From positions 4,164 through 68,163 of the forward strand of contig CANPXO010000001.1 in assembly GCA_947586205.1 (NCBI GenBank): a stretch of 64,000 nucleotides of DNA, written 5' to 3'. The notes below the pieces were generated by a model. The model was not told the DNA's origin and ran no database searches. It saw only the letters and a program-made list of their open reading frames with translations. The stretch is from an uncultured Bacilli bacterium. GTDB lineage: Bacteria > Bacillota_I > Bacilli_A > RF39 > UBA660. The position numbers and the translations under genes are program-made. Of this stretch, positions 2,381 to 55,300 are shown in pieces; position 1 is the stretch's first letter; each line of letters begins with the position of its first letter.

Positions 2381-2471
2381 AACTCTCACCTCTTTCTTAA
2401 ACTCTATTATAAAAGAAATCATTTGATTTCTCAAGAAGAAACAAAAAGTTTTTAAAATCACTTTTTCCTAC

Positions 2472-2500
2472 TTGAATTTTTATTTTATTTTTGATATACT
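2472..2500 (+). promoter_or_regulatory. Antisense-RNA promoter of unit A (TTGAAT-17-TATACT with TGn extended -10)
   Basis: -35 TTGAAT at 2472-2477, a 17-nt spacer, and ttGaTATACT at 2495-2500. It converges on the 3' end of small ORF A. The same promoter recurs at 2841-2869 and 3217-3245, and on the minus strand at 14733-14761 and 15107-15135. Confidence 0.55.
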
Positions 2501-2506
2501 GTATAC

Positions 2507-2620
2507 AGATGAAGGAAACTTCATATAATAAAAAAAGGAAGCATTCAGTTTTCCATTACTGAATGCCTACCTATAAAAATGGGTTGACATTTACGTTATG
2601 TAAGTGTCTATTTCTTTATT
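2507..2620 (+). ncRNA. Putative cis-antisense RNA A (type I antitoxin-like), overlapping the 3' UTR and terminator of small ORF A
   Basis: The TSS is inferred ~7 nt after the -10. The RNA ends at hairpin GACAUUUAC..GUAAGUGUC (2585-2607, one G-U wobble) followed by a U-rich run. It is fully complementary to the last codons, stop codon and terminator of the convergent small ORF. Confidence 0.4.
2525..2566 (-). terminator. Intrinsic terminator of small-ORF A mRNA
   Basis: On the minus strand, hairpin GCAUUCAGU..ACUGAAUGC is followed by CUUCCUUUUUUUAUU. Confidence 0.5.
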
Positions 2621-2703
2621 ATGGAAAGAATTAATATAATTTCCAATAAAATAGTGATGACATACCTTAAGACTTGTAAATGATAACTCTGCTTTTTTGT
2701 CAT
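2608..2703 (-). CDS. Small hydrophobic peptide A (31 aa, MTKKQSYHLQVLRYVITILLEIILILSIIKK); putative type I toxin-like membrane peptide
   Basis: Not in the ORF track because it is too short. SD AGAAGAAAGGGG lies upstream. The 5' leader (about 2745-2756) contains CTTTCTTCTCTC, complementary to the SD. It has a polar N-terminus, a single TM helix and a C-terminal KK, like BsrG/TxpA/Fst. Confidence 0.45.
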   Translation of the reverse strand: MTKKQSYHLQVLRYVITILLEIILILSIIKK

Positions 2704-2788
2704 ATCAATCACACCCCTTTCTTCTTTAGATTTTGTTATAGAGAGAAGAAAGTGGTAGACACCCAGTAACTAAATACTTCCTATGAAC

Positions 2789-2817
2789 ATAATAGCATAC
2801 TTTTATAATATTAGCAA
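2789..2817 (-). promoter_or_regulatory. Promoter of small ORF A (TTGCTA-17-TATTAT)
   Basis: Read on the minus strand: TTGCTA atattataaaagtatgc TATTAT. It recurs at 3165-3193 (-), 14413-14441 (+) and 14785-14813 (+) with a TAATAT -10. Confidence 0.5.
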
Positions 2818-2875
2818 GCAAAAATATTATTTTTTGCCACTTGAATTTTTATTTTATTTTTGGTATACTGTATAC

Positions 2876-2992
2876 AGATGAAGGAAACTTCATATAATAA
2901 AAAAGGAAGCATTTCAGTTTGCTATGCTGAATGCCTACCTATGAAAATTGGATAGACATTTACAATTTACTTGTAAGTGTCATTTCTTTATC
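2876..2992 (+). ncRNA. Putative cis-antisense RNA B
   Basis: Promoter TTGAAT (2841-2846), 17-nt spacer, tgGTATACT (2864-2869). Terminator hairpin GACATTTAC..GTAAGTGTC at 2955-2981 followed by a T-rich run. Confidence 0.4.
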
Positions 2993-3081
2993 ATGGAAAG
3001 AATAAATATTACTTGCCATAATATTGTGATAATGTAATCAAATATTTGAAGTACAAATTTCTTGTTTTGACTCATATTCAT
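2980..3081 (-). CDS. Small hydrophobic peptide B (33 aa, MNMSQNKKFVLQIFDYIITILWQVIFILSMIKK); putative type I toxin-like
   Basis: SD AAGGAGAAAGGGG lies upstream and the leader carries CTTTCTCCTCTC (anti-SD). It is a paralog of peptides A, C' and D'. Confidence 0.45.
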   Translation of the reverse strand: MNMSQNKKFVLQIFDYIITILWQVIFILSMIKK

Positions 3082-3251
3082 CACACCCCTTTCTCCTTAA
3101 AAAAATTATTTTATAGAGAGGAGAAAGTGGTAGACACTCAGCAACTAAAATGCTTCCTACAAACATATTAGCATACTTTTATAATATTAGCAAGCAAAAA
3201 TATTATTTTTTGCCACTTGCATTTTTATTTTATTTTTGATATACTGTATAC

Positions 3252-3366
3252 AGATGAAGGAAACTTCATAAAATAAAAAAAAGGAAGTATTCAGTTTTCC
3301 ATTACTGAATGCCTACTTTAGAAAGTTGAAGACATTTACAATTGCTTGTAAGTGTCATTTTTTTGT
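3252..3366 (+). ncRNA. Orphan antisense-RNA unit C (promoter and terminator present, cognate small ORF absent)
   Basis: Promoter TTGCAT (3217-3222), 17-nt spacer, TATACT (3240-3245). Terminator hairpin 3331-3356 followed by T7. The expected small-ORF position is taken by the 3' end of the thioredoxin-like gene, so the unit is degenerate or truncated. Confidence 0.3.
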
Positions 3367-3399
3367 CATAAAGAAAAAGAAAAGCAATATTTACTTTTC

Positions 3400-4116
3400 T
3401 TAACATGCATCCGTACAAACATCTAAACTTATTGAATTTAATAATTCTTTTAAAGTGTTTTTAAGTTTTTCTCGATCACTTTCTGACAATGTTTCATACC
3501 CAGTTTCTTGAGCATCTACTGTTCCCTCATGTATTGCTTTAATCTTCCCACCTTGAACTGCCACGATTGTGGGAGCATAGAGTCTTTTTTCATTGGTCTC
3601 AATACTTTTTCCTTTGGAATCATATAATGTATAATCACTTAAATAATCTTTTAATAAATCTAATATTTTATAATAGTCAGCACTCCCCTCTTTTTGAGTC
3701 ATCACTTTATTATTCTCATCTAAGGCAAGTGTAGAACGAATGTCTTTAATATTTAAATAATAAATCTCCCCAATACTTTCTTCTTTAGCAGCTTCCTCTA
3801 AAATAGGTAGTATCGTTCGGCACCAAGGACAAGTTGGAAAACCAAAATAAATAATTCCTGAACCACTTTCCAAAATTTTTACAATTTCTTCTTCTGTTTT
3901 ATATACAAAAGGATTGTCATCATCAAGTTCTACAATAGGATATTCCTTTTTATTATTTTCATTTACTTGACCGTTCAAAGAACCATATTCTTCCTTTATT
4001 TTTACTGCATCTTTCTCTTCCGTTTCTCTATTTTGAAAAGCAAAGAAGGCGCATACACAAGCAATCACTACAATCACACCTAGTAAACCTACTAACACCC
4101 AGTTTTCTTTCTTCAC
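3400..4116 (-). CDS. Membrane-anchored thioredoxin-fold protein (CPWC active-site-like motif)
   Basis: N-terminal TM helix and an FPTCPWC motif. It starts at GTG (the track shows M). The thioredoxin-like fold is inferred from the motif and length. Confidence 0.55.
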   Translation of the reverse strand: MKKENWVLVGLLGVIVVIACVCAFFAFQNRETEEKDAVKIKEEYGSLNGQVNENNKKEYPIVELDDDNPFVYKTEEEIVKILESGSGIIYFGFPTCPWCRTILPILEEAAKEESIGEIYYLNIKDIRSTLALDENNKVMTQKEGSADYYKILDLLKDYLSDYTLYDSKGKSIETNEKRLYAPTIVAVQGGKIKAIHEGTVDAQETGYETLSESDREKLKNTLKELLNSISLDVCTDAC

Positions 4117-14278: not shown

Positions 14279-14412
14279 AATTCCACGTCCTCATTAAAAA
14301 AATTATAACAAAAAAAAGACAAAAAAAGAAGTTTTATTCTTCAAGTGTTAAAGTGGTTGTCACCTAGCCTAACAATCAATTTTATTTTCAGTAGATAATT
14401 ATCATTTTTTGC

Positions 14413-14441
14413 TTGCTAATATTATAAAAGTGTGCTAATAT
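14413..14441 (+). promoter_or_regulatory. Promoter of small ORF C' (TTGCTA-17-TAATAT, TGn extended -10)
   Basis: TTGCTA 14413-14418, 17-nt spacer, tgcTAATAT 14436-14441. Confidence 0.5.
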
Positions 14442-14524
14442 GTTTGTGGGAAGCATTTTAGTTGCTGAGTGTCTACCACTTTCTCCTCTCTATAAAATCA
14501 ATTTTTTAAGGAGAAAGGGGTGTG

Positions 14525-14626
14525 ATGTATATGACCAAAAGGCAAATTTATCATTTAAAAGTCTTGAAGTGTATAATCACAATTCTGTGGCAAGTAATAT
14601 TTATTCTTGCCATAATAAAAAAATGA
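14525..14626 (+). CDS. Small hydrophobic peptide C' (33 aa, MYMTKRQIYHLKVLKCIITILWQVIFILAIIKK); putative type I toxin-like
   Basis: SD AAGGAGAAAGGGG at 14507-14519. The leader anti-SD CCACTTTCTCCTCTC at 14476-14490 gives an SD-sequestering stem-loop with a 14-nt loop. The sequence is a single TM helix plus a KK tail. Confidence 0.45.
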   Translation: MYMTKRQIYHLKVLKCIITILWQVIFILAIIKK

Positions 14627-14726
14627 CACTTACGTAATTGTAAATGTCTATACTCTTTATAGGTAGGCATTCAGCATAGCTAAACTGAAATGCTTCCTTT
14701 TTTATTTTATGAAGTTTCCTTCATCT
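14615..14726 (-). ncRNA. Putative cis-antisense RNA C'
   Basis: Minus-strand promoter TTGAAT (RC at 14756-14761), 17-nt spacer, TATACT (RC at 14733-14738). Terminator hairpin (RC at 14625-14648) followed by a U7 run. It overlaps the stop codon and terminator of ORF C'. Confidence 0.4.
14667..14710 (+). terminator. Intrinsic terminator of small-ORF C' mRNA
   Basis: Hairpin GCATTCAGCATAGCTAAACTGAAATGC followed by TTCCTTTTTTATTTT. Confidence 0.5.
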
Positions 14727-14895
14727 GTATACAGTATATCAAAAATAAAATAAAAATTCAAGTGGCAAAAAATAATATTTATGCTTGCTAATATTATAAA
14801 TGTATGTTAATATGTTTGTAGGAAGCATTTTAGTTGCTGAGTGTCTACCACTTTCTCCTCTCTATAACCAAAATTTTTAAGGAGAAAGGGGCGTG

Positions 14896-14997
14896 ATGTA
14901 TATGAGTCAAAACAGGAAATTTATACTTCAAATATTTGATTACATTATCACTATTTTATGGCAAGTAATATTTATTCTTTCCATAATGAAAAAATGA
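14896..14997 (+). CDS. Small hydrophobic peptide D' (33 aa, MYMSQNRKFILQIFDYIITILWQVIFILSIMKK); putative type I toxin-like
   Basis: Promoter TTGCTA (14785-14790), 17-nt spacer, TAATAT (14808-14813). Leader anti-SD and SD as in C'. Confidence 0.45.
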   Translation: MYMSQNRKFILQIFDYIITILWQVIFILSIMKK

Positions 14998-15100
14998 CAC
15001 TTACAAGTAAATTGTAAATGTCTCCAATCTTTTTCGGTAGGCATTCAGCATAGCTAAACTGAAATGCTTCCTTTTTTATTTTATGAAGTTTCCTTCATCT
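14986..15100 (-). ncRNA. Putative cis-antisense RNA D'
   Basis: Minus-strand promoter TTGATT (RC at 15130-15135), 17-nt spacer, TATACT (RC at 15107-15112). Terminator hairpin RC at 14996-15023 followed by a U-run. Confidence 0.4.
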
Positions 15101-15153
15101 GTATACAGTATAACAAAAATAAGATAAAAAATCAAGTAGGAAAATATAATATT

Positions 15154-40976: not shown

Positions 40977-41906
40977 TTATTCCTCCTCCTTATTTTCATA
41001 CATAGAATCAATTAAGTGATATAAATCATTTTCGAGTGTCTCATCATCTTCTATTTTTTCTTCTTCTGTTTTGTCATGATATTCATCTAAAACATCCATA
41101 CTTAATTTTTCTTCTAATTCTGGATCATTTTGAATCACTACATCATCAGAATCTATCGTATCAAAAAGTTCTTTTTCTTCTGGTTCTACTTCTTTTTCAA
41201 CTGGTACATCAATGGTATCAAAAGACGACCCTTCTAAAAGTTCATCAATGCTTTTTTCTTTTGGTTTTTCTTGAACAGTCTTTTCTTCTTTTTCATGAAC
41301 CACTTCTAATTGTCTTGTTTGCATTAATGTTCTTTCAATATCATCTTCTAAAGTACCAAATGCTTTTTTTCTTACATCGTCTACATCAAATGTCTTTTTT
41401 TCTTCTTTTTTTACAATGATATCTTCTTTTTTATAATTCTTATCAAGAACCCCATATACTGGTGAAATGACTGGTGAAGGTTTAAACTTTCTTGATTCAA
41501 TTCCTGTTGATTTTGATTCATAAGCTCTTCCTTTAATTTCTTCTGCTTTATTCTTTTTTAATTTAGGCTTTTCAGAATCAAATAGATTAAATCCCATTGT
41601 CTTTTTAGGTGGTTCTTCAGACTGTTTAGGTTCAGGCTCTGGTTCAAAAGTATGTTTCATTTCTTCAAACTCTTGGTCATCAAACATTGGAAAATCAAAT
41701 GTTTTCTCAGCCTTAAATAAATCTCGATCACCAGTTAAATCTTCATCTAAATTGCTTTCAAAGACATTTTTCTTTCTTTCTACTTTCTTCTCTTCAACAA
41801 CAGGAGGAGAGACTTTCTTTGGTGGTTCCTCAATAGGAACTTCCACTTCTTCTTCCTCAAATAACACTGATTTTAACTTATTAAACAATCCCATGATTAT
41901 CCTCAC
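40977..41906 (-). CDS. Acidic Glu-rich low-complexity protein (hypothetical)
   Basis: 309 aa, very E/D/K-rich, with no TM segment. Confidence 0.3.
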   Translation of the reverse strand: MRIIMGLFNKLKSVLFEEEEVEVPIEEPPKKVSPPVVEEKKVERKKNVFESNLDEDLTGDRDLFKAEKTFDFPMFDDQEFEEMKHTFEPEPEPKQSEEPPKKTMGFNLFDSEKPKLKKNKAEEIKGRAYESKSTGIESRKFKPSPVISPVYGVLDKNYKKEDIIVKKEEKKTFDVDDVRKKAFGTLEDDIERTLMQTRQLEVVHEKEEKTVQEKPKEKSIDELLEGSSFDTIDVPVEKEVEPEEKELFDTIDSDDVVIQNDPELEEKLSMDVLDEYHDKTEEEKIEDDETLENDLYHLIDSMYENKEEE

Positions 41907-52300: not shown

Positions 52301-55300
52301 TCTTTTAATACTGGATCTTCAAAACCTTTTTTATTTTTTTCAGGTTCAAATACAACCTGAGTATCTGTCGTACCATTTTGATTAAGAGTAGTATCTGCTT
52401 CTTCTTTATAATGTCCTTCTGTATCCATATAATAGTACTCTACTTTATATGGTGTATCTTCTTTGGCAGTAAAGCTCTTATCACTTAATGTGAGAGACAT
52501 TTCTCCAAAACTTCCTTTTGGTATTTTTGTAACAAGTTCTTCTGTTCCATTTTTTACCCAACCATTAAAGGTATATCCAGGTTTTGTTGGTACTGGCAAC
52601 GTTTTTTCTTCATCTTCAATTGTATAAGTTGTATTATTACAATCATTACAAGTGACACCTTGTACTCCAGATGTATCATATTTAATATTATAATTAACAA
52701 CGTTCCATTCTGTTGTTATCTCTTCACTTTTTTCTACTTTAAATCCTTTATAATTTTCTTGAGGAATTTCTTCATTATTTAATTTAAAGCCCTTAAATTC
52801 ATAGCCATTCATATTTGGTACCTCTAAATCATAAGTCTCAGCTTCAAATACAGCATATAAATCTAAAGTTACATTATTATCATTTGGAACATAATTTTCT
52901 AGACTATCACAATCTTGGTATGATACTTCTTGATTATTTTGTTTTGTTGACCAACCTTTAAAACGATTTTGGATAGTGATGATTTCACTTTTCCCTTTTT
53001 CCTTATAGTCTTTTATAGTTAAAGTATAATCATCTTTTGTAATAGTATTTTCTTTAAGAGAATAACTACTTCCATATACAAAAGTATCTGAAACCATTTC
53101 TGAATTTGTTCCATCTTCTTTATGATAGTTTACCGTAAACTGATTGCCTTCACTTTCAATAGTAACTGTGTTGTCTCCATCCACAATTTCATAAGTTATA
53201 GTGCTTTCTTTTAAATGATATCCATTTTTAGCAGTAGCTGTTACAGTAACTTGAGATTCAAAATAATACTCAGTTTCTTCTAAATATTCCTTTCCATTTA
53301 CTTTAAAGTTTTCTACTCCATCCGTTTTAACTACGTTTAATGTAAATTTCTTTCTTTCATAGTAATATTTTAAAACTGTTTTTCCATTTCCATTAATAGT
53401 TGGAGTATTTGTAATTACTTCTCCTGTAGCACTTTCTTTTAAAACTGGATTTTTAAAACCTTTTTCTTTTACTTCAGGAGTAAATGTAATTTCACTATCA
53501 GTAACCCCATGCTCCTCTTTCGTTGCATTTGGTTCTGTTGGATATTGTCCATCTTTATCCATATAATAGTATTCTATTTTATATGGAGTATTTTCGTTTG
53601 CTGTAAAACTTTTCTCACTTAAAGATAATGTTAATTCTCCAAAACTTTCTTTTGGTATTTCTTTAATGAGTTCATCTGTTCCGTTTTTTACCCAACCATT
53701 AAAAGTATATCCAGGTCTTATTGGTGTTGGTAAAGAAACGATATCACTTTCAATATTGTATTTTTTAGTTGTACAATCCGTACAAGTTACATCTTTAATT
53801 CCATTGGTATCAAACGTAATAGAATAATCAACTAATTCCCATTCCGTAGTAATTTCTTCATCTTTTTCTACTTTAAAGTTCTTATAATCTTCTTTGGAAA
53901 TTTCTTTGCCATTTAACATGAATCCTTTAAATTCATAACCATTTATACTTGGTTCTTTTAATTCATAATTTTCTGTTTCAAATACTGCATATAAATTTAA
54001 GGTATCATTATCTTTACTAGGGATATAAGTTTCTAATTTATCTACATCATTATAAATTTTCTTACCACTTTTTGATGTAGCCCATCCACTAAAATTATTT
54101 TTAATAGAAACTGTTTCATCTTTATCTTTTCCATTATAATCTTTTATAGTAAATGTATATGGTTCTTTTGTGATGACATTTTCTTTAAGTGCATATGTTT
54201 CTCCATACACAAAAGAATCTGATTCCATATTTGAAGGAGTTCCATCTTCATTATAATAATTTACTGTGAACTCATTTCCTGCACTTTCAATAGAAATAGC
54301 ATTTTCTCCCTCAGTAACTACATAGTTATACACACCATCATCTAATAGATGATAACCTTCTTTGGCGAAAGCACGCACATTTATTTCTTCTTCAAAGTAA
54401 TACTTTTCTTTTTGAGGATAAGTTACATTGACTTCATCTTCATTATAAGAAATCACAACAGGATATTGTTTTCTCTCATAATAATATTTTAAAACTGTTT
54501 TACCATTTCCATCAATGGTTGGTAATTTTTCTCCATCTAATTTTGGAGATTCAAAACCATTTTTATTCTGAGGAACATAAGTAGGTAATTCATCTGTAGT
54601 TCCTTTTGTGATTTCTTTATCAACTGTTTCTTTCAGACTATATTTTCCTGTAGTATCCATATAATAAAGTTCTACTGTATAAGGAGTATCTTCTTTTGCT
54701 TTAAAGATAGCTTCCACAGTAATATCCTCAAAATAAGTATTAGGTTCTATTTCTGTTCCTTCTATTTCTTTTCCATTGATTTTCCATCCAATAAAGTCAT
54801 AACCATTCTTAGTTGGTGTACCAAAAGATAATTTTGTTTGAATCGTATATTTATCTTTTAAAGGAATATTCGTTTTTCCACCATTAAGTTCATAAGTAAT
54901 TTGATATTCTTTTAACTTTGTTGTGACTTTTAATCTTTCATCTTTTAAACCTATTTCATAATCAAAAGAAGTTTCTTGTTTTTGATTAGACCATTTGTCT
55001 AATTCATAACCAGAGTTTAAAAGAACACTCACCTTTACTTTTGATTGATAATAATATTTTCCGCTGCCAGATGTTTCCTTTACTCCACTATCTCCTGTTA
55101 CTTCTAAAGTAAATTGTTTTCTTTCGTAGTAATATCTGACTAAGATCGTATCGTTTTCAGAAAGAGTAATTTCCTCTTCTATTGGACTCATAAATCCAAT
55201 AAAATCTTTTACTCCAGGAGATACTTTACTTCCACTTTCTCCTACTTTTGTTTCAGAAATATTTGGTGTGTTAGGGTAAATTCCATTGGTATCCATAAGA

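What the first reader, a model, noticed from the sequence alone, without database searches (positions are those of the whole stretch)
2704..2760. Compensatory covariation between the SD and the leader anti-SD supports a conserved RBS-sequestering stem
In unit A the SD is AGAAGAAAGGGG and the leader element is CCACTTTCTTCTCTC. In units B, C' and D' the SD is AGGAGAAAGGGG and the leader element is CCACTTTCTCCTCTC. The G-to-A change in the SD is matched by a C-to-T change at the pairing position of the leader. This preserves an 8-9-bp SD/anti-SD helix (coordinates for the other copies: 3086-3150 and 14476-14523). Such covariation is the classical signature of a functional RNA structure. It is also how type I toxin mRNAs (tisB, hok, bsrG) are kept translationally silent until they are processed.
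Basis: seen in the sequence. Interest (0 to 1): 0.7.

Follow-up and report, generated by a model that had tools for sequence, protein, structure and literature searches.

The report
Ribosome-site hairpin in new toxin mRNAs
The matched base changes are real and mark a conserved hairpin that hides the ribosome-binding site of a small membrane-toxin mRNA, part of an undescribed but mechanistically familiar RNA-controlled toxin-antitoxin family in uncultured gut bacteria.

Summary
All four units carry a 13-position inverted repeat, ACCACUUUCU[U/C]CU / AG[A/G]AGAAAGGGGU, and the U-A versus C-G difference sits at one pairing position. On its own this is weak: it is one pair and probably one evolutionary event (15 of 500 shuffles match it). 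The stem itself is well supported. Every homologue recovered from other MAGs and metagenomes keeps a hairpin that pairs the Shine-Dalgarno (SD) sequence with a pyrimidine tract just upstream. This holds for at least 6 different arm sequences, including wobble pairs and matched indels.

The first ~30 nt of each toxin mRNA pair with its own terminator region in a 29-bp helix (99% of cells paired, 5 covarying pairs). The SD hairpin starts where that helix ends and shares the bases ACC with it. A convergent antisense RNA covers the 3' UTR.

This layout matches the one shown experimentally for Bacillus subtilis bsrG/SR4. The 31-aa toxins and both RNAs match nothing in Pfam, NCBIfam, Rfam or PDB, or in the plasmid or phage collections. 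Verdict: a new type I toxin-antitoxin family using a known regulatory logic, of moderate interest.

The parts
2530..2782 (-). Unit A toxin mRNA (predicted, about 253 nt), from the predicted transcription start to the terminator U-run.
   Evidence: Promoter TTGCTA-17-TATTAT at 2789-2817 with TG. Terminator at 2539-2568. Coordinates. Fold.
2754..2782 (-). Unit A, 5' strand of the long end-to-end helix (called P1 here). Its last bases, ACC, are shared with the SD hairpin.
2744..2756 (-). Unit A anti-SD arm, ACCACUUUCUUCU.
2713..2725 (-). Unit A SD arm, AGAAGAAAGGGGU. AGAAAGGGG is the best match to the 16S 3' end, 10 nt before the ATG.
2608..2703 (-). Unit A toxin ORF, 31 aa: MTKKQSYHLQVLRYVITILLEIILILSIIKK.
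2537..2571 (-). Unit A, 3' strand of P1. It is also the intrinsic terminator hairpin of the toxin mRNA.
2507..2618 (+). Unit A antitoxin RNA (predicted, about 110 nt). Promoter TTGAAT-17-TATACT at 2472-2500; 5' hairpin with GAAA loop; terminator at 2586-2608. It is antisense to the toxin 3' UTR and the last codons.
2899..3158 (-). Unit B toxin mRNA (promoter 3165-3193). P1 5' strand 3129-3158; anti-SD 3119-3131; SD 3085-3097; ORF 2980-3075 (MSQNKKFVLQIFDYIITILWQVIFILSMIKK); P1 3' strand and terminator 2905-2939.
2876..2991 (+). Unit B antitoxin RNA (predicted). Promoter 2841-2869; terminator 2955-2981.
3217..3366 (+). Orphan antitoxin-type module. It has the promoter, the 5' hairpin and a terminator (3331-3356), opposite a toxin-type 3' UTR, but no toxin ORF. 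It abuts the stop codon of the 238-aa ORF at 3400-4116(-).
14448..14703 (+). Unit C' toxin mRNA (promoter 14413-14441). P1 5' strand 14448-14477; anti-SD 14475-14487; SD 14509-14521; ORF 14531-14626 (MTKRQIYHLKVLKCIITILWQVIFILAIIKK); P1 3' strand and terminator 14662-14697.
14615..14726 (-). Unit C' antitoxin RNA (predicted). Promoter 14733-14761; terminator complement 14625-14648.
14820..15077 (+). Unit D' toxin mRNA (promoter 14785-14813). P1 5' strand 14820-14849; anti-SD 14847-14859; SD 14880-14892; ORF 14902-14997 (MSQNRKFILQIFDYIITILWQVIFILSIMKK); P1 3' strand and terminator 15036-15071.
14988..15100 (-). Unit D' antitoxin RNA (predicted). Promoter about 15107-15135, read from the sequence; terminator complement 14996-15022.

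Best explanation
Each unit is a chromosomal type I toxin-antitoxin module of an uncultured gut Bacilli bacterium. The toxin mRNA is about 255 nt and encodes a 31-aa membrane peptide. It folds so that translation is braked from within the molecule.

1. As soon as the Shine-Dalgarno region (AG[A/G]AGAAAGGGG) is transcribed, it pairs with the pyrimidine tract ACCACUUUCU[U/C]CU about 20 nt upstream.
2. In the finished transcript, the first 29-30 nt, starting at the predicted 5' end, pair with the terminator region in a long helix (P1). This helix closes the molecule.
3. P1 and the SD hairpin both need the bases ACC. A roughly 110-nt antisense RNA is transcribed convergently across the 3' UTR. When it occupies the 3' strand of P1, ACC is released and the SD hairpin gains three pairs over the 3' part of the SD. 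The RNA duplex probably also marks the mRNA for RNase III.

What is shown here: the sequences, the hairpin in every homologue, P1 with covariation, and the promoter and terminator signals. What is inferred: that the hairpin lowers translation, that the antisense RNA is made and acts as antitoxin, that the peptide is toxic, and the antisense-induced extension of the stem. That last step rests on analogy with bsrG/SR4.
For: - The SD/anti-SD arms are present in all four window units.
- The paired U-A/C-G change has no mismatched intermediates in 7 distinct close copies.
- Thirteen distinct leaders from five contigs of three MAGs and five metagenome contigs (L015 duplicates L012) all give the SD hairpin as their minimum-free-energy (MFE) fold. 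Their z-scores are -2.0 to -4.6.
- The arms differ between lineages: CUUUCU[C/U]CU/AG[G/A]AGAAAG, CUU[C/U]UCCU/AGGAGAAG, ACCU[C/U]CU/AGGAGGU, ACCUCU/GGAGGU, ACCUUC-UCCU/AGGG-GGAGGU and UCA[C/U]CU/AGGUGA.
- Changes that leave a G.U pair are tolerated only on the toxin-sense strand, which points to RNA rather than DNA.
- P1 is found in every complete copy, by RNAalifold and by pair counting. It has 29 pairs with 99.1% of cells paired, against 34-48% when the partners are slid. Five pairs show double changes, and 0 of 500 shuffles reach the observed score.
- The whole-mRNA fold z-score is -10 for unit B and -6 for unit A.
- Unrelated toxin types that share only the antitoxin 5' module also show P1 plus an SD hairpin (L007, L008, L004b, L005d).
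- Blocking the 3' UTR in silico adds about 3 pairs to the SD helix in 8 of 12 copies (L016 4 to 7, L011 8 to 11, wB 13 to 16; L010a gains 7). It lowers the unpaired probability of the SD core in 9 of 12 copies.
- Convergent promoters with extended -10 boxes are predicted, and 4 terminators are found against 0.2 expected.
- Toxin leader MFE is -12 to -19 kcal/mol, against -6.7 +/- 3.6 for 29 ordinary genes of the window.
- bsrG/SR4 was shown experimentally to have this layout. P1 joins nt 1-35 to nt 232-262. The SD AGGGG sits in a 4-bp stem right after P1. SR4 binds the 3' end, frees nt 1-33 and extends the SD stem to 8 bp (PMC3834814).
- SD/anti-SD stems and 5'-3' interactions are recognised key determinants of type I toxin mRNAs (PMC8594479).
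Against: - There are no expression, toxicity or structure-probing data. All promoters, RNA ends and folds are predictions.
- The SD arm is also constrained by ribosome binding, so it varies little. Most of the support therefore comes from one-sided changes and matched indels, not from double substitutions.
- The predicted effect of antitoxin binding on SD accessibility is modest and inconsistent. Unit A goes the other way (0.01 to 0.32), and wC and L005b barely change.
- In an isolated 60-nt context, the unpaired probability of the SD is 0.03-0.37, against a background of 0.50 +/- 0.24. That is lower, but not extreme for every copy.
- With so stable a hairpin, it is unclear how the toxin is ever translated.
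- The 5' strand of P1 in L011-L016 was fixed by the search pattern. Only its 3' partner was free to vary in those loci.
Confidence: 0.72

Rival explanations
1. The hairpin is real, but its main job is not to block ribosomes. It would be a stability or processing element, for example a continuation of P1 that protects the 5' end, or a double-strand RNase site. On this view SD occlusion is a side effect.
For: The hairpin abuts P1 and can stack on it. P1 begins at the predicted first nucleotide, as expected for protection against 5' exonucleases. The SD is predicted to be mostly paired whether or not the 3' UTR is blocked, so the hairpin does not look like a clean on/off switch.
Against: The one constant across six different arm sequences is that the 3' arm is the SD itself. 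Arm length, loop and position all change, but the SD is always the paired partner. In bsrG, shortening the equivalent stem directly raised translation (PMC3834814).
Confidence: 0.1
2. The matched change is hitch-hiking or chance. Two linked substitutions about 30 nt apart would be inherited together in duplicated units, with no selection on pairing.
For: Only one pair covaries in the close subfamily, in two block-like haplotypes. 15 of 500 shuffles do as well, and phylogeny is not corrected for. L004a shows that the whole hairpin moves as a block by recombination.
Against: Distant homologues with unalignable arms still pair the SD with an upstream tract. All 13 leaders have negative z-scores. 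C-rich complements of the SD are improbable by chance in a 30% GC genome.
Confidence: 0.06
3. The inverted repeat acts, or arose, at the DNA level. It could be a binding site for a dimeric protein. Alternatively it could be the product of template-switch 'quasi-palindrome correction', which copies a mutation from one arm to the other.
For: The arms are an inverted repeat in DNA. Template switching can create apparent compensatory changes without RNA-level selection (established knowledge, not tested here).
Against: The spacer between the arms varies from 3 to 27 nt in the helix registers read. Several members rely on G.U pairs (L011, L013, L005c, L005d, L014), which are mismatches in DNA and C.A on the other strand. 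The A.G mismatch persists in 6 of 7 close copies instead of being 'corrected'.
Confidence: 0.04
4. The pyrimidine tract is a docking site for the antitoxin or another small RNA acting in trans, as in par (Fst) or SprA1. On this view it is not an intramolecular partner of the SD.
For: In Fst/RNAII and SprA1 the antitoxin pairs outside the overlap region (PMC8594479).
Against: The best duplex between each predicted antitoxin and its toxin 5' UTR is no better than with shuffled antitoxins. Values run from -21 to -33 kcal/mol, against shuffled means of -22 to -28 with sd about 4.
Confidence: 0.03

Closest known systems
bsrG/SR4 of Bacillus subtilis (SPbeta prophage), TxpA/BsrG-type type I toxin-antitoxin
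   Same: - A small hydrophobic toxin with a basic C-terminus.
- A G-rich SD (AGGGG in bsrG, AAAGGGG here).
- About 30 nt of the 5' end paired with the 3' region in a long helix P1.
- The SD lies in the stem of the first hairpin after P1.
- The antisense RNA is complementary to the 3' end.
- Antitoxin binding is expected to free the P1 5' strand and lengthen the SD stem. This was measured for bsrG (4 to 8 bp, PMC3834814) and is predicted here (+3 bp).
   Different: - No detectable sequence similarity of toxin or RNAs.
- Here the 3' strand of P1 is the terminator hairpin itself, not a segment upstream of it.
- The SD stem is already 9 bp in the window copies, against 4 bp in bsrG.
- The antitoxin is about 110 nt, against about 180 nt for SR4.
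- The units lie in tandem chromosomal arrays rather than on a prophage.
- Nothing here has been tested experimentally.
par (Fst RNA I / RNA II) of Enterococcus faecalis pAD1
   Same: A Gram-positive type I module with convergent transcription, a small membrane toxin, and an intramolecular 5' stem-loop that occludes the ribosome-binding site. The last point is from my own knowledge of the par literature and was not re-read here.
   Different: - No Fst-type peptide: no APxxxG motif and no Pfam hit.
- No antitoxin pairing with the toxin 5' region.
- The antitoxin here has its own terminator, not a shared bidirectional one.
hok/Sok (plasmid R1) and aapA1/IsoA1 (Helicobacter pylori)
   Same: The full-length toxin mRNA is closed by a 5'-3' long-distance interaction. 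The SD is sequestered by cis-encoded anti-SD sequences, and covariation has been used to support the folds (PMC8594479, PMC6733600).
   Different: - Those are Gram-negative systems with the antitoxin acting at the 5' side.
- In them activation is by 3' trimming.
- In hok the anti-SD is supplied through the long-distance fold.
- Here the anti-SD is local, the antitoxin covers the 3' UTR, and no processing step is evident.

Membership tests
Type I toxin-antitoxin system (generic) | Small (<60 aa) hydrophobic, membrane-type toxin ORF with its own SD. | tested here: met
   ORFs of 30-38 aa with one hydrophobic stretch and a C-terminal KK. Their length and position are conserved in all homologues.
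Type I toxin-antitoxin system (generic) | Antisense RNA gene overlapping the toxin mRNA. | tested here: inconclusive
   A convergent promoter TTGAAT-17-TATACT with TG and a dedicated terminator are found in every unit. Four terminators are found against 0.2 expected. These are consensus predictions only, with no transcript data.
Type I toxin-antitoxin system (generic) | Toxicity of the peptide and its neutralisation by the RNA. | not testable with these tools
   Needs expression experiments.
bsrG/SR4 (TxpA/BsrG-type) | Toxin homologous to BsrG/TxpA. | tested here: not met
   No Pfam or NCBIfam family even at E<=10. No PDB relative. No true homologue among 1.8 billion protein representatives. 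tblastn against phages and plasmids gave nothing significant.
bsrG/SR4 (TxpA/BsrG-type) | Long helix P1 between the 5' end and the 3' region of the toxin mRNA. | tested here: met
   29 pairs, 99.1% of cells paired, 5 pairs with compensatory changes, slid controls 34-48%. Also found by RNAalifold and present in all single folds.
bsrG/SR4 (TxpA/BsrG-type) | SD inside the stem of the first hairpin after P1. | tested here: met
   Also seen in the L007 and L008 types.
bsrG/SR4 (TxpA/BsrG-type) | Antitoxin binding at the 3' end frees the P1 5' strand and extends the SD stem; RNase III-dependent decay. | tested here: inconclusive
   An in-silico block of the 3' UTR adds about 3 bp in 8 of 12 copies (L010a gains 7). 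It lowers SD-core accessibility in 9 of 12 copies, and unit A goes the other way. RNase III dependence cannot be tested here.
Fst/RNAII (par) | Fst-type toxin (Pfam Fst_toxin, APxxxG motif). | tested here: not met
   No Pfam hit. The motif is absent from the peptides.
Fst/RNAII (par) | Antitoxin pairs with the toxin 5' region through repeats outside the overlap. | tested here: not met
   Duplex energies are indistinguishable from those of shuffled antitoxins.
hok/Sok and AapA/IsoA (long-distance-interaction type) | 5'-3' long-distance interaction in the full-length mRNA. | tested here: met
hok/Sok and AapA/IsoA (long-distance-interaction type) | Antitoxin targets the 5' part of the mRNA; activation by 3' processing. 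| tested here: not met
   The predicted antitoxin overlaps the 3' UTR and the last codons. Processing cannot be tested here.
Any Rfam toxin or antitoxin RNA family | Match to the family covariance model. | tested here: not met
   No match at gathering thresholds in the whole window. With permissive thresholds on 2400-3450, only sub-threshold matches appeared; all but one have E >= 0.88, and the exception is mir-633 at E = 0.015 and 25 bits against a gathering score of 90.

The most novel reading that the evidence does not exclude
The window units belong to a previously undescribed superfamily of bsrG-like RNA switches in uncultured gut Bacilli. Two features stand out.

1. The toxin's 5' leader is an internal mimic of the antitoxin. 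The same 30 nt pair with the same 3' target, so the antitoxin must displace the leader. Doing so hands three bases (ACC) to the SD hairpin.
2. A portable antitoxin 5' module of about 45 nt (promoter, start site and a GAAA-loop hairpin) is kept almost identical in front of at least six small-ORF types, several of which show no resemblance to each other. This implies modular shuffling of toxins onto one antitoxin chassis.
Probability: 0.4. Interest if true: 0.55.

Novelty: new member of a known kind. Interest (0 to 1): 0.4.

Why it matters
The mechanism is textbook for type I toxin mRNAs: the ribosome-binding site is hidden in a hairpin, the mRNA ends are closed on each other, and an antisense RNA covers the 3' end. 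The concept is therefore not new.

The new part is the family. Neither the peptides nor the RNAs match any curated family searched. The peptides have no real counterpart in the 1.8-billion-sequence protein library searched, and gene callers did not call the toxin ORF in the one related assembly whose calls were checked (L001). The hosts are uncultured gut Bacilli known only from MAGs.

The family gives natural sequence variation that supports the P1/SD-hairpin layout, and is compatible with (but does not test) the antitoxin-driven switch, established biochemically for a single B. subtilis locus (bsrG/SR4). It suggests that this design is widespread. It also shows that 64-kb windows with no annotated RNA can hold five copies of a structured antisense module.

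Tried and rejected
**Searches that found nothing**
- Rfam at gathering thresholds on the whole window and at permissive thresholds on 2400-3450. Only noise appeared, for example PGK RNA at 24 bits with E about 3 on both antitoxin promoters.
- Pfam and NCBIfam on the four peptides at E<=10.
- A PDB profile search.
- A profile search of 1.8 billion protein representatives. It gave one spurious hit, to a 1873-aa protein.
- blastn of the array against plasmids and phages, and tblastn of two toxins. The only hit had E=5.
- A viral-contig scan for the antitoxin module.
- Full-text searches for peptide or leader strings.

**Calls that failed or were uninformative**
- A taxon-oriented literature search was uninformative.

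**Ideas rejected**
- The antitoxin pairs directly with the SD or the leader. This was rejected by the duplex-versus-shuffle test.
- The 10-bp palindrome CTGTATACAG at the antitoxin start is an operator. It is not kept in the diverged members L011 and L015, so it was dropped.
- The matches at 41780-41794 and 55232-55243 are further units. They carry no antitoxin module and lie in ordinary coding sequence (for the second). They are chance matches.

**Analyses abandoned or found to be weak**
- A column-wise covariation count of the SD stem across all subfamilies was abandoned. MAFFT does not align the arms, and a hand-fitted alignment would be circular. Per-sequence folds were used instead.
- The comparison of SD accessibility with ordinary genes gave only a moderate difference.

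Full report
**What is in the sequence.** The window holds four complete repeat units of about 370 bp and one partial unit. Units A (2470-2850) and B (2835-3215) lie head to tail on the minus strand. Units C' (14400-14775) and D' (14763-15145) lie head to tail on the plus strand. A 3' fragment occupies 3195-3420.

The leader element is CCACTTTCT[T/C]CTCTC, with 4 exact matches against 0.49 expected. The SD is AG[A/G]AGAAAGGGG. The repeat finder reports them independently as 12-13-nt inverted repeats, 92% complementary and 18-21 nt apart, in all four units. Unit A has U in the leader and A in the SD. Units B, C' and D' have C and G. The two positions face each other in a helix of 9 contiguous pairs. 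The helix extends to 13 positions, ACCACUUUCUYCU/AGRAGAAAGGGGU, with one A.G mismatch.

**What the units are.** Each unit has five parts:
- A promoter, TTGCTA-17-TA[A/T]TAT, with an upstream TG.
- A leader of about 80 nt.
- A 31-aa ORF, for example MSQNKKFVLQIFDYIITILWQVIFILSMIKK, with one hydrophobic span and a KK tail.
- A 3' UTR of about 80 nt that ends in an intrinsic terminator.
- On the other strand, a convergent promoter TTGAAT-17-TATACT (also with TG). It would give an RNA of about 110 nt that runs back across the 3' UTR. That RNA ends at its own terminator, which overlaps the toxin stop codon.

Four terminators were found against 0.2 expected.

[quoted passage not shown] The neighbouring genes are chromosomal housekeeping genes: DnaB/DnaI-like, a D-Ala-D-Ala carboxypeptidase, SpmA/B-like and P-type ATPases. 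The closest public sequences are MAGs labelled 'uncultured Bacilli bacterium' from rabbit and mouse gut.

Seven distinct close copies were aligned: four from the window, plus L004a, L005a and L005b from another MAG. In the 13-pair helix, 10 pairs never vary. One pair is U-A in 4 copies and C-G in 3, with no mismatched combination. One position is A.G in 6 copies and C-G in 1 (L005a). One terminal pair is broken in D'.

15 of 500 shuffles reach the observed values. That is the 1-in-35 expected for a single two-state pair, and it is not corrected for relatedness. The hairpin is inherited as a block: L004a joins an A-type hairpin to a B-type 5' leader and a D-type coding region. The pair therefore most likely records one evolutionary event. 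It is consistent with a stem but does not prove one.

**The wider family settles the stem.** Two unbiased DNA patterns were used to collect homologues, and neither touched the stem:
- The antitoxin 5' module was scanned against genomes.
- The leader segment just upstream of the anti-SD was scanned against metagenomes.

Together they gave 11 further leaders. All fold into a hairpin whose 3' arm is the SD, with dinucleotide-shuffle z-scores of -2.0 to -4.6 for the 13 distinct sequences. The arms differ between lineages:

| Lineage | Anti-SD arm / SD arm |
|---|---|
| Window type | CUUUCU[C/U]CU / AG[G/A]AGAAAG |
| L010a, L005c | CUU[C/U]UCCU / AGGAGAAG (one U-A pair fewer on both arms; one C-G to U.G change) |
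| L016 | ACCUCCU / AGGAGGU |
| L011, L013 | ACCUUCU / AGGAGGU (U.G) |
| L014 | ACCUCU / GGAGGU |
| L012 | ACCUUC-UCCU / AGGG-GGAGGU |
| L004b, L005d (38-aa toxin subfamily) | UCA[C/U]CU / AGGUGA |

Compared with the L016 type, the window type carries a matched six-base insertion in both arms (ACUUUC / GAAAGG). Loops range from 3 to 27 nt in the helix registers read. The wobble pairs exist only on the toxin-sense strand, so the constraint is on that RNA and not on the DNA.

Toxin leaders are also far more structured than ordinary leaders of the same window. Their MFE is -12 to -19 kcal/mol, against -6.7 +/- 3.6 for 29 genes. The SD unpaired probability in a 60-nt context is only moderately below background (0.03-0.37 against 0.50 +/- 0.24).

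Folding whole toxin mRNAs pairs nt 1-30 with the terminator region. The z-score is -10 for unit B and -6 for unit A, and the pairing appears in all 13 complete copies. RNAalifold recovers this helix.

Pair counting on 12 sequences gives:
- 29 pairs with 99.1% of cells paired, against 34-48% when the partners are slid by 1-3 columns.
- 5 pairs with changes on both sides, for example GGAAGCA/UGCUUCC, GGAAAUA/UGUUUCC, GGAACA/UGUUCC, GGAGUA/UACUCC and UUACUG/CAGUAA.
- 0 of 500 shuffles reaching the covariation score.

One caveat applies. The 5' strand of L011-L016 was fixed by the search pattern, so only the 3' partner was free in those loci. However, the families found through the antitoxin module have the same end-to-end helix with unrelated sequences (L004b/L005d, L007, L008).

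The helix starts at the predicted first nucleotide. Its last three bases (ACC) are also the outermost bases of the SD hairpin, where they pair with GGU or GGG of the SD. The two structures therefore compete for them.

**Mechanism.** The anti-SD lies upstream of the SD, so the hairpin can form during transcription and keep the nascent mRNA untranslated. The finished mRNA is closed by P1. The antisense RNA is perfectly complementary to the 3' strand of P1. The toxin leader nt 1-30 is in effect a shortened copy of the antitoxin's central hairpin, read directly from the sequences.

When the 3' UTR is made unavailable in silico, the leader refolds into its own small hairpin. The SD stem gains about three pairs in 8 of 12 copies (L016 4 to 7, L011 8 to 11, wB 13 to 16), and L010a gains seven. 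The unpaired probability of the SD core falls in 9 of 12 copies, but it rises in unit A. The antitoxin shows no complementarity to the 5' UTR beyond chance.

This is the sequence of events demonstrated for B. subtilis bsrG/SR4. There, P1 joins nt 1-35 to nt 232-262. The SD AGGGG sits in a 4-bp stem. SR4 binds the 3' end, nt 1-33 become single-stranded, and the SD stem grows to 8 bp. Shortening the stem raises translation, and decay depends on RNase III (PMC3834814).

I therefore rate the constitutive SD-hiding role of the hairpin as likely (about 0.8). I rate the antitoxin-induced tightening as plausible (about 0.4).

**Comparison with known systems.** Functionally, the module works like bsrG/SR4. 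It also shares the local SD-sequestering stem with par RNA I and the end-to-end closure with hok and aapA1.

It is not a member of any of those families by sequence:
- No Pfam, NCBIfam or PDB relative of the peptides.
- No homologue among 1.8 billion protein representatives.
- No Rfam match.
- Nothing significant in the plasmid or phage collections.

It differs from bsrG in four ways. The P1 3' strand is the terminator itself. The basal SD stem is longer. The antitoxin is shorter. The units lie in tandem chromosomal arrays.

**Verdict.** The object is a new family of a well-known kind. Interest is moderate at 0.4. A type I toxin-antitoxin specialist would not be surprised by the logic. The natural variation supporting the bsrG-type layout, and the shared antitoxin 5' module, are still worth a short follow-up.

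Noticed in passing
window 2499-2524(-), 2868-2893(-), 3244-3269(-), 14709-14734(+), 15083-15108(+); also L004-L010 and L016: The stretch at the antitoxin start (toxin-sense ATGAAGTTTCCTTCATCTGTATACAG) is nearly identical next to at least six small hydrophobic ORF types in other MAGs, several of which show no resemblance to each other. On the antitoxin strand it is a 6-bp hairpin with a GAAA loop at the predicted 5' end. Its stem covaries in L015 (UCAAG-GAAA-CUUGA) and L011 (UGUAAGA-GAAAU-UCUUACA). It looks like a portable antitoxin chassis. Its function is unknown; a 5'-end stabiliser or a protein or RNase site are possibilities.
   Followed up: partly
window 3217-3366(+), next to ORF 3400-4116(-): An orphan module has the antitoxin promoter, 5' hairpin and terminator, opposite a toxin-type 3' UTR, but no toxin ORF. 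It directly follows the stop codon of a 238-aa PedC-like gene. The same arrangement is kept in L001, L002 and L004. An ordinary gene may therefore be under antisense control, or this may be a conserved array remnant.
   Followed up: partly
L004 5975-6375(+); L005 2240-2640(-): The arrays in related MAGs contain a further subfamily with a 38-aa toxin (MDKRRTFVIKIFKYLLALATLFTICFLAFLYVMMQKGT). It has the same promoter and terminator frame but its own end-to-end helix (GGAAGGU/ACCUUCC) and its own anti-SD.
   Followed up: yes
window 3076-3081(-), 14525-14530(+), 14896-14901(+): Units B, C' and D' have a second in-frame ATG two codons upstream (giving MNM... or MYM...), only 4 nt after GGGG. Unit A has ATT there. 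The downstream ATG, which is conserved in every homologue, is the likely start.
   Followed up: partly
window 14683-14698(+) and 14820-14835(+): The terminator 3' arm of unit C' is also complementary to the 5' leader of the next unit, D', 121 nt away. In a read-through transcript, neighbouring units could pair with each other.
   Followed up: no
window 1-64000: Rfam finds no family at all at gathering thresholds in 64 kb: no tRNA, riboswitch or leader. GC skew is negative throughout, and every ORF of at least 90 aa listed in the first 17 kb lies on the minus strand.
   Followed up: no
L008 (CAYRDW010000004.1): A contig carrying the same antitoxin module and a small-ORF unit is binned in a Muribaculaceae (Bacteroidota) MAG. 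This is either a binning error or horizontal transfer.
   Followed up: no
window 2472-2566(+) and 2841-2932(+): There are weak full-length matches to Rfam PGK RNA (24 bits against a gathering score of 50.8, E about 3) on both antitoxin promoter and 5' regions. These are probably chance matches repeated because the units are repeats.
   Followed up: no
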